DNA from: Eledone cirrhosa
Taxonomy: Eukaryota
Reading direction: 5' to 3'
Assembly (NCBI GenBank): GCA_964016885.1
Contig: OZ024762.1
Coordinates: 17,236,001-17,300,000, forward strand
Length of the DNA: 64,000 nucleotides
Each line of letters begins with the position of its first letter. Position 1 is the stretch's first letter. Positions 43,707 through 44,076 of this stretch are shown in pieces. A model generated the notes under the pieces. That model was given only the letters and a program-made list of their open reading frames with translations, was not told the DNA's origin and searched no databases. The position numbers and the translations under genes are program-made.

Positions 43707-44076
43707 GTGAGGTTTTTTTTACAAAATGAAAAATAACCGAGGTGTCCTACACGAGTGAAAGTATAAAGAAAAAGAGATGAAATCGAAAATGCAACTGAAG
43801 TCTTATTTTTTTTAAAATATATATATTTATTTGGTTCCTTTACCGGTTTCGCAGTTCTTCTGCTTTTCTTCTGCTTTTCGCAGTTCTTCTGAGTTGAGAT
43901 GGAGGGTCTGTGGTTTTTCTCACATCAGATGTGAGAAAAACCACAGACCCTCCATCTCAACTCACCTTTTGAAAAGCAGAAGAACTGCGAAACCGGTAAA
44001 GGAACCAAATAAATATATATATTTAAAAAAAAATAAGACTCCAGTTGCATTTTCGATTTCATCTCTTTTTCTTTAT
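43701..44076 (-). mobile_element. Fold-back family C element with U3-A8 hammerhead variant
   Basis: Inverted arms meet at ~43927, tail on the left. Motif at 43965-44002 (+). Single-arm copy at 30946-31153. Confidence 0.75.

What the first reader, a model, noticed from the sequence alone, without database searches (positions are those of the whole stretch)
43965..44002. Recurrent U3-A8 compensatory hammerhead core (UUGAAAA) with CCGG loop III
Seen: CCTT-TTGAAAA-GCAG AAGAA CTGC-GAAA-CCGG-TA-AAGG. The same TTGAAAA core and CCGG-TA appear in its homolog at 31081-31118 (-) and, with different stems, at 1385-1420 (-, GAAA changed to GCAA) and 57483-57523 (-, stem I decayed). Established: C3 and G8 form a tertiary Watson-Crick pair in the active hammerhead, and U3-A8 keeps that pair. 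Inference: both changes together in three different stem contexts point to a selected variant lineage, which CUGANGA-based searches would miss.
Basis: partly seen in the sequence, partly recalled or inferred. Interest (0 to 1): 0.85.

Follow-up and report, generated by a model that had tools for sequence, protein, structure and literature searches.

The report
Penelope retrotransposon hammerhead, U3-A8 core
This 38-base motif is one of over 11,000 identical copies of a small hammerhead-type RNA motif carried by a young Penelope-like jumping gene; its swapped U-A core pair is the norm for the family and is already published, it likely cuts only weakly and in pairs, and this copy is likely inert.

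Summary
The motif lies in the pseudo-LTR of a young Neptune/Nematis-type Penelope-like element (PLE) encoding reverse transcriptase and GIY-YIG endonuclease. The genome holds 11,625 exact copies of the 29-mer against 0 with C3-G8, so U3-A8 is the family state, not decay. Three further families keep U3-A8 and CCGG while position 7 and stem II change. Old C3-G8 sisters exist in homologous flanks, so the 3-8 covariation is real. It is not new: natural U3-A8 was published in 2011, and a UUGAAAA core inside a Schistosoma PLE in 2014. This scan also noted it in other genomes. The window copy is a 5'-truncated, inverted stub that folds into one long hairpin and is probably inert. Cleavage is untested; none of 93 element ends stops at the predicted cut site. 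Less expected: the 1385-1420 copy is not decayed. GCAA (A13C) is fixed in its family (24 of 4,129 copies have GAAA), which I did not find in print. Verdict: new member of a known kind; low interest.

The parts
43965..44002 (+). Minimal type I hammerhead-type motif, family A. Stem I 43965-68/43999-44002; core U3..A9 43969-75; stem II 43976-88; G12-A15.1 43989-92; CCGG 43993-96; U16.1 43997; A17 43998. Predicted cut between 43998 and 43999.
43926..44073 (+). Right arm of the insertion: 5'-truncated pseudo-LTR fragment of PLE family A, ending about 75 nt after the predicted cut site, at TA repeats
   Evidence: 99% identical over 153 nt to a copy lying behind the endonuclease ORF; end class
43703..43926 (-). 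Left (inverted) arm of the same insertion, ending about 138 nt after its motif, at TA repeats
   Evidence: the whole stub folds as one hairpin, -244.9 kcal/mol
43837..43890 (-). Motif of the left arm: 3' half intact; stem I 5' strand and TTG of the core replaced by local duplications of stem II sequence (43868-43890)
   Evidence: read directly
30948..31153 (-). Second family A stub; motif at 31082-31117 with a 3-bp stem I
1268..1461 (-). Family B stub; motif at 1385-1420 with U3-A8 and GCAA (A13C), the normal state of that family
   Evidence: 95% to a family B unit
57311..57589 (-). Old family C stub; motif at 57483-57523, U3-A8; homologous to C3-G8 copies elsewhere in the genome
   Evidence: one exact copy genome-wide; 72-77% to L224, L225 over about 280 nt

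Best explanation
The motif is the pseudo-LTR hammerhead-type element of a young, abundant Penelope-like retrotransposon, with U3-A8 as the family's fixed replacement of C3-G8; it likely self-cleaves only slowly and only as a dimer, and this stub is likely inert. Shown: family membership, copy numbers, position 169 nt before the first ATG and about 1,050 nt behind the RT-endonuclease ORF, tandem period about 4.7 kb, covariation at 3-8 and in stem II. Inferred: a transcript running through two pseudo-LTRs, or two transcripts, pair their ACCGGU palindromes into a 6-bp helix III. U3-A8 would then hold the active core, and cleavage after A17 would release a unit-length RNA. U3 can also pair with A17, the counterpart of the C3-G17 pair that damps minimal hammerheads, which would slow it further. 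Reverse transcription would be primed at TA microsatellites 75 or 138 nt past the site, on uncut or re-ligated RNA. 5' truncation with inversion would give stubs like this one.
For: 11,625 exact copies. Same context: C3-G8 0, C3-A8 51, U3-G8 23. 18 of 20 loci chosen around long frames carry a motif downstream of a 775-842 aa frame on its strand (read from the table); the frame has RT and GIY-YIG matches (RT just under Pfam's cut-off). Across families A, B and D, whose RT-EN proteins are 50-56% identical to A, TTGA-AA, G-AA and CCGG-TA stay while N7 varies (A, T, C) and stem II changes with pairing kept. C3-G8 sisters differ from the 57483 copy's core at just positions 3 and 8, in flanks 72-77% alike. 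The two-copy minimum-energy fold has double-hammerhead topology, -20.3 against 2 x -6.4 kcal/mol. It matches the published PLE pattern: short stem I, palindromic helix III, opposite-strand pairs 100-700 bp apart, U3-A8.
Against: No cleavage or expression data. 0 of 93 arms end at the predicted cut site. 5' junctions show no sharp peak there (by eye 8 of about 46 junctions exactly at the site, 19 within 2 nt upstream, over 10 positions). Family B amplified to about 4,100 copies with A13C, and element E carries GAAC as its usual form, so amplification may not need a canonical core. The predicted fold pairs U3 with A17. Both core changes are AT-ward transitions in an AT-rich genome. No Rfam hammerhead model hits the motif. 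Published PLE minimal hammerheads cleave poorly in vitro.
Confidence: 0.72

Rival explanations
1. Hammerhead by descent but no longer cutting: the U3-A8 lineages carry a vestigial or purely structural motif, and the elements spread without cleavage.
For: A13C is fixed in family B and its B2 subfamily. No element end lies at the site. U3-A17 mispairing is predicted. Naiad PLEs proliferate without canonical hammerheads (PMC8557442 passages).
Against: The core, the free N7, paired stem II and the palindrome are kept across families whose flanks barely align. This needs selection on hammerhead-like features. Mismatched 3-8 states never form a large family in context A.
Confidence: 0.2
2. The conserved bases are kept as a DNA element of the pseudo-LTR promoter, for example a palindromic AACCGGT protein site (Grainyhead-like, recalled), and the ribozyme look is secondary.
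For: AACCGGT survives in family B where GAAA does not. The motif lies 169 nt before the ATG, and an E2F-like site (recalled) lies upstream in A and B.
Against: It does not explain 3-8 covariation, N7 freedom or compensatory stem II changes. Other hammerheads in the window have other palindromes at the same place.
Confidence: 0.05
3. Independent decay of a CUGANGA family, or chance.
For: AT-rich genome; U3-G8 single-change copies occur in old C3-G8 families (L227, L120 minus).
Against: 11,625 to 0 in context A. C3-G8 with CCGG gives only 156 genome-wide matches, no more than the 174 of the control.
Confidence: 0.01

Closest known systems
U3-A8 minimal hammerheads of Cercyon PLEs in Schistosoma mansoni (Cervera & De la Pena 2014, PMC4209133; main text parts 1-2 of 4 and supplement parts 1-2 of 3 read)
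   Same: Type I, in the pseudo-LTR of a PLE, U3-A8 core including the literal UUGAAAA (S. mansoni 4, Fig. S3), short stem I, G10.1-C11.1, mostly solitary truncated copies, opposite-strand pairs.
   Different: Here helix III has a CCGG palindrome (6-bp in the dimer) instead of none. There is no extra base between A9 and 10.1 in A and B. H17 is A, against U or G in the two listed Schistosoma U3-A8 rows. Copy number is about tenfold higher. Family B adds A13C.
PLE hammerheads with a small palindromic helix III (Drosophila, shrimp, rotifer, mosquito; same paper)
   Same: Palindromic 15.2-16.2 and loop 3, short helix I, predicted dimer activity.
   Different: Those listed have C3-G8.
Natural C3-G8 to U3-A8 core variants (Perreault et al. 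2011, PMC3088659; section 8 and passages read)
   Same: The same covariation, there reported in several natural ribozymes and said to be active in vitro; also the U10.1-U11.1 mismatch seen here in family D.
   Different: No A13C among the variants named in the text read; Figures 5, S6 and S7 could not be seen.
Neptune/Nematis EN+ Penelope-like elements (Craig et al. 2021, PMC8557442; passages read)
   Same: RT followed by a CX2-5CxxC linker and C-terminal GIY-YIG, partial tandems, inverted 5'-truncated copy, tail at one end, microsatellite targets, hammerhead in the pseudo-LTR.
   Different: A separate 400-aa ORF1 is joined by a probable -1 frameshift. The paper's Fig. 1 legend allows this for some PLEs; I could not see for which clades.

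Membership tests
Hammerhead ribozyme, type I minimal | Core U4 G5 A6 N7, A9, G12 A13 A14, A15.1-U16.1, H17 | tested here: met
   All present in family A; A13 is not met in family B.
Hammerhead ribozyme, type I minimal | Watson-Crick 3-8 pair | tested here: met
   U3-A8 fixed; C3-G8 in homologous sisters.
Hammerhead ribozyme, type I minimal | Stems I and II flanking the core, with covariation | tested here: met
   4 bp each in A, both in the minimum-energy fold; stem II changes keep pairing between families. Stem I is only 1-3 bp in B, C and D.
Hammerhead ribozyme, type I minimal | Helix III, or a palindrome that forms it in a dimer | tested here: met
   Monomer helix III is not foldable; ACCGGU self-duplex -8.3 kcal/mol; dimer fold has double-hammerhead topology.
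Hammerhead ribozyme, type I minimal | Self-cleavage after H17 | not testable with these tools
   Needs a bench assay; indirect genomic end-mapping gave no support.
Rfam hammerhead families | Covariance-model match | tested here: not met
   No hammerhead hit at E up to 10 on 43940-44020.
EN+ Penelope-like element | RT followed by C-terminal GIY-YIG endonuclease with CCHH residues | tested here: met
EN+ Penelope-like element | Partial tandems forming pseudo-LTRs, 5' truncation, inverted 5' copy, tail | tested here: met
   Period 4,679-4,712 nt in L058, L059, L065; inverted arms and two 3' end points.
Neptune/Nematis clades | CX2-5CxxC linker between RT and EN | tested here: met
   CX4CX2C read in the ORF; definition from PMC8557442.
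Neptune/Nematis clades | Placement in an RT tree with reference clades | not tested
   No named reference set was on hand; Neptune and Nematis are not told apart.
Non-LTR retrozyme | Short non-coding tandem repeats, each with a hammerhead | tested here: not met
   Copies are dispersed stubs of a 4.7-kb coding unit.

The most novel reading that the evidence does not exclude
The CCGG lineage is a natural series of hammerhead core variants. Once C3-G8 became U3-A8, position 13 was freed, and family B (U3-A8, C13, A17; about 4,100 copies, two subfamilies) is a working dimeric ribozyme with a core not found in the papers I could search. If B is dead instead, it shows directly that a canonical PLE can amplify thousands of times after losing cleavage.
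Probability: 0.15. Interest if true: 0.55.

Novelty: new member of a known kind. Interest (0 to 1): 0.22.

Why it matters
As a class it is known. Its value is practical. In this genome the CCGG-type PLE hammerheads are almost all U3-A8 (about 20,000 matches over, against 156 C3-G8), so CUGANGA descriptors and Rfam miss them. The role of PLE hammerheads is described as unclear (PMC8557442). A young family with intact units, a sister family with A13C and old C3-G8 sisters make a ready natural panel for asking whether cleavage is needed.

Tried and rejected
Rfam on the whole window: the 150 best of 594 matches shown were microsatellite-driven, nearly all miRNA models, none a hammerhead. Element E as the 'canonical sister': rejected. 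My pattern (13 hits) had selected a minority form; most copies from a flank search read GAAC, and the endonuclease piece beside L145 belongs to family B. Peak of 5' ends at the cut site: inconclusive. By script 4 of 14 junctions in the first 30 loci lie exactly at the site and 3 more 2 nt upstream; TA microhomology confounds this. Single origin of U3-A8: the pseudo-LTR tree (19 rows, core columns left in) needs 2 changes, 9 of 16 inner branches are open, and one origin is not ruled out. A stimulatory structure behind the slippery site: not better than shuffles (z 0.02; pseudoknots not modelled). ORF1 has no Pfam match above cut-off. Literature for A13C: 'hammerhead ribozyme'+'A13C' 0 papers; a six-term search gave 3 papers, none on it by the listing; Perreault text and supplements had no such variant in searchable text. 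'C3U'+'G8A' 0 papers; 'U3-A8' 1 paper. Lunse et al. (RNA Biol 14:1499) and Przybilski & Hammann 2007 were not held, so I saw neither; the first may well list such variants. The term 'octopus' was a guess from base composition; the organism was not determined. One search returned an unrelated paper.

Full report
Observation. The 38 bases at 43965-44002 (+) are as written. Numbering: stem I 43965-68 with 43999-44002; U3 43969; A8 43974; stem II 43976-88; G12 43989; CCGG 43993-96; U16.1 43997; A17 43998. The other three sites exist. A descriptor that demands a paired 3-8, stems I and II of at least 3 bp and a palindromic helix III finds 12 motifs in the window (3 U3-A8, 9 C3-G8). It finds one in 40 local shuffles altogether. 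Rfam does not recognise the motif.

Context. The motif is the right arm of a 370-nt inverted insertion, 43703-44073, flanked by TA repeats. The left arm has the 3' half of the motif, but its 5' core is replaced by short local duplications. As RNA the stub folds into one hairpin of -244.9 kcal/mol that buries the motif. The window lies in a 3.0-Gb genome in which the 29-mer occurs 11,625 times, control 0, often as close opposite-strand pairs.

Parent element. Two fetched copies continue upstream, over about 1 kb of shared sequence, into a GIY-YIG frame. That frame finds 150 scored matches at 99-100% identity, many in 775-aa open frames. I took 20 stretches around long frames. In 18 a motif lies downstream of the frame on its strand, nearly always about 1,050 nt behind it (read from the table). 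Tandem units repeat at 4,679-4,712 nt in L058, L059 and L065. The frame matches RVT_1 (E 1.3e-6, 28.7 bits, cut-off 29.6) and GIY-YIG (E 4.4e-6) and has a CX4CX2C linker, which Craig et al. 2021 give for Neptune and Nematis (PMC8557442, passages). It has 767 relatives at E <= 1e-30. The predicted cut site is 169 nt before the ATG of a 400-aa ORF1, open in 6 of 6 copies checked. ORF1 overlaps the RT frame in the -1 phase at a T-TTT-TTA heptamer kept in families A, B and D. The window copy is therefore a 5'-truncated, 5'-inverted pseudo-LTR stub of a young PLE, the arrangement described in that paper.

Is U3-A8 the family state? Yes. In the same context C3-G8 occurs 0 times, C3-A8 51 times and U3-G8 23 times. 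The 1385 copy belongs to family B: 4,129 matches to a pattern that allowed either core and GAAA or GCAA; all of the first 100 listed are TTGAAAA and 99 are GCAA; GAAA occurs 24 times genome-wide. The 57483 copy is unique at exact match but has relatives. A looser pattern for cores followed by a base other than G gave 4,694 matches, control 176. By eye, 90 of the first 100 are U3-A8, 4 C3-G8, 3 C3-A8 and 3 U3-G8. It revealed family D, with T or C at position 7. All C3-G8 cores with CCGG together give 156 matches, control 174.

Covariation. RT-EN proteins of B and D are 50-56% identical to A and their flanks align poorly, yet TTGA-AA, G-AA and CCGG-TA persist, N7 varies, and stem II changes keep pairing. 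Of five rare loci fetched, four have C3-G8 and one U3-G8. Two of the C3-G8 loci are 72% and 77% identical over about 280 nt to the window's 57483 copy, and a third is 72% identical to its relative L120. Their cores differ from it only at 3 and 8. The swap thus happened within this lineage. A pseudo-LTR tree cannot say how often: 2 changes, weak support, core columns included.

Mechanism. A monomer cannot close helix III. Two copies fold with double-hammerhead topology through ACCGGU (-20.3 against 2 x -6.4 kcal/mol). That fits the published view that metazoan PLE hammerheads work as dimers and cleave poorly in vitro (PMC4209133; review PMC6765202, passages). The same fold pairs U3 with A17. 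Formation of a C3-G17 pair is the presumed reason G17 damps minimal hammerheads (PMC3884650, passages), so by inference U3-A17 may damp this one.

Results against a strong role for cleavage. Of 93 arms in loci picked on the motif or the protein, 0 end at the site; 42 end near +75, 44 near +138, 5 read on into ORF1 and 2 end in between. Templates were therefore uncut at the 3' motif or re-ligated. 5' junctions in the ten positions around the site show no sharp peak (by eye; for the first 30 loci). Family B spread with C13, flanks still 94% alike between copies. A short element E usually reads GAAC. I put 0.72 on a slow dimeric ribozyme and 0.2 on a non-cutting descendant.

Comparison. Perreault et al. 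2011 report natural U3-A8 (PMC3088659, section 8). Cervera & De la Pena 2014 found it in Cercyon PLEs of Schistosoma mansoni, about 1,300 hits, noted that their first descriptor missed it, and list a UUGAAAA core in a PLE (supplement). Small palindromic helices III are also described there. New here are only the host lineage, the scale, the pairing of U3-A8 with a CCGG helix and A17, and A13C in family B. I found no A13C in print, but Lunse et al. 2017 and figure-only supplements were not visible and may bear on it. Of the 2026 retrozyme preprint I read part 1 of 5, and of PMC7229834 and PMC6466107 passages only; none changed the reading. Earlier notes of this scan reach the same class in other genomes; they are not counted as support.

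Verdict. A real feature and a new member of a known kind; this copy is probably inert. Interest 0.22.

Noticed in passing
window 1385-1420 (-); family B, e.g. L079, L090, L092, subfamily in L153, L162: GCAA (A13C) is fixed in the family: 24 of 4,129 matches have GAAA; a second subfamily with a longer loop II also has GCAA.
   Followed up: yes
L065:2259-3461 and 3371-5695; also L090-L092, L152: Two-ORF layout: a 400-aa ORF1 without Pfam match overlaps the RT-EN frame in -1 phase at a T-TTT-TTA heptamer kept in families A, B and D; probably programmed frameshifting. The Fig. 1 legend of PMC8557442 mentions such an ORF1 for some PLEs.
   Followed up: partly
L163-L192 (element E), e.g. L164, L167: A roughly 350-nt repeat with CTGATGA core, usually GAAC in place of GAAA, a CCGG palindrome and a 5' hairpin; the best copies start at nearly the same place. 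No linked ORF established.
   Followed up: partly
window 7267 (-), 16493 (+), 16810 (+), 18172 (-), 18304 (+), 19674 (-), 19813 (+), 30194 (+), 31696 (+); looser hits near 23302 (-), 44656 (-), 60070 (-): At least nine canonical C3-G8 hammerhead-like motifs with other palindromic helices III, two sets in inverted pairs; probably stubs of further PLE families.
   Followed up: partly
window 43868-43890: The left arm's core is replaced by short duplications of stem II sequence, like template slippage at the hairpin; L068 and L073 both begin 14 nt upstream of the predicted cut site.
   Followed up: partly
L065:1900-1920 and L092 upstream of the motif: A GGCGCGAAA word (E2F-like, recalled) is kept about 110-150 nt upstream of the motif in families A and B; possible pseudo-LTR promoter element.
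   Followed up: no
window 49681-50922 (+), 7573-8067 (-), 8935-9267 (-), 17172-17489 (+): Broken reverse-transcriptase-like frames of LINE-type elements.
   Followed up: no
window 10635-12340, 20887-21992, 34324-36020, 62840-63570: Long tandem arrays and (TA)n tracts that give spurious long ORFs and miRNA-model hits.
   Followed up: no
L008:2394-3029 (-), L031:2602-3027 (-); L011/L020; L024: Helitron-like helicase fragments and two more distant PLE-like RT/GIY-YIG families in fetched loci (labels recalled, not tested).
   Followed up: no
one search hits P0012, P0039, P0042, P0056: Relatives of the RT-EN protein at 45-50% identity are filed under bacterial symbionts of bivalves, on 3-5 kb contigs; probably host DNA in those assemblies.
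   Followed up: no
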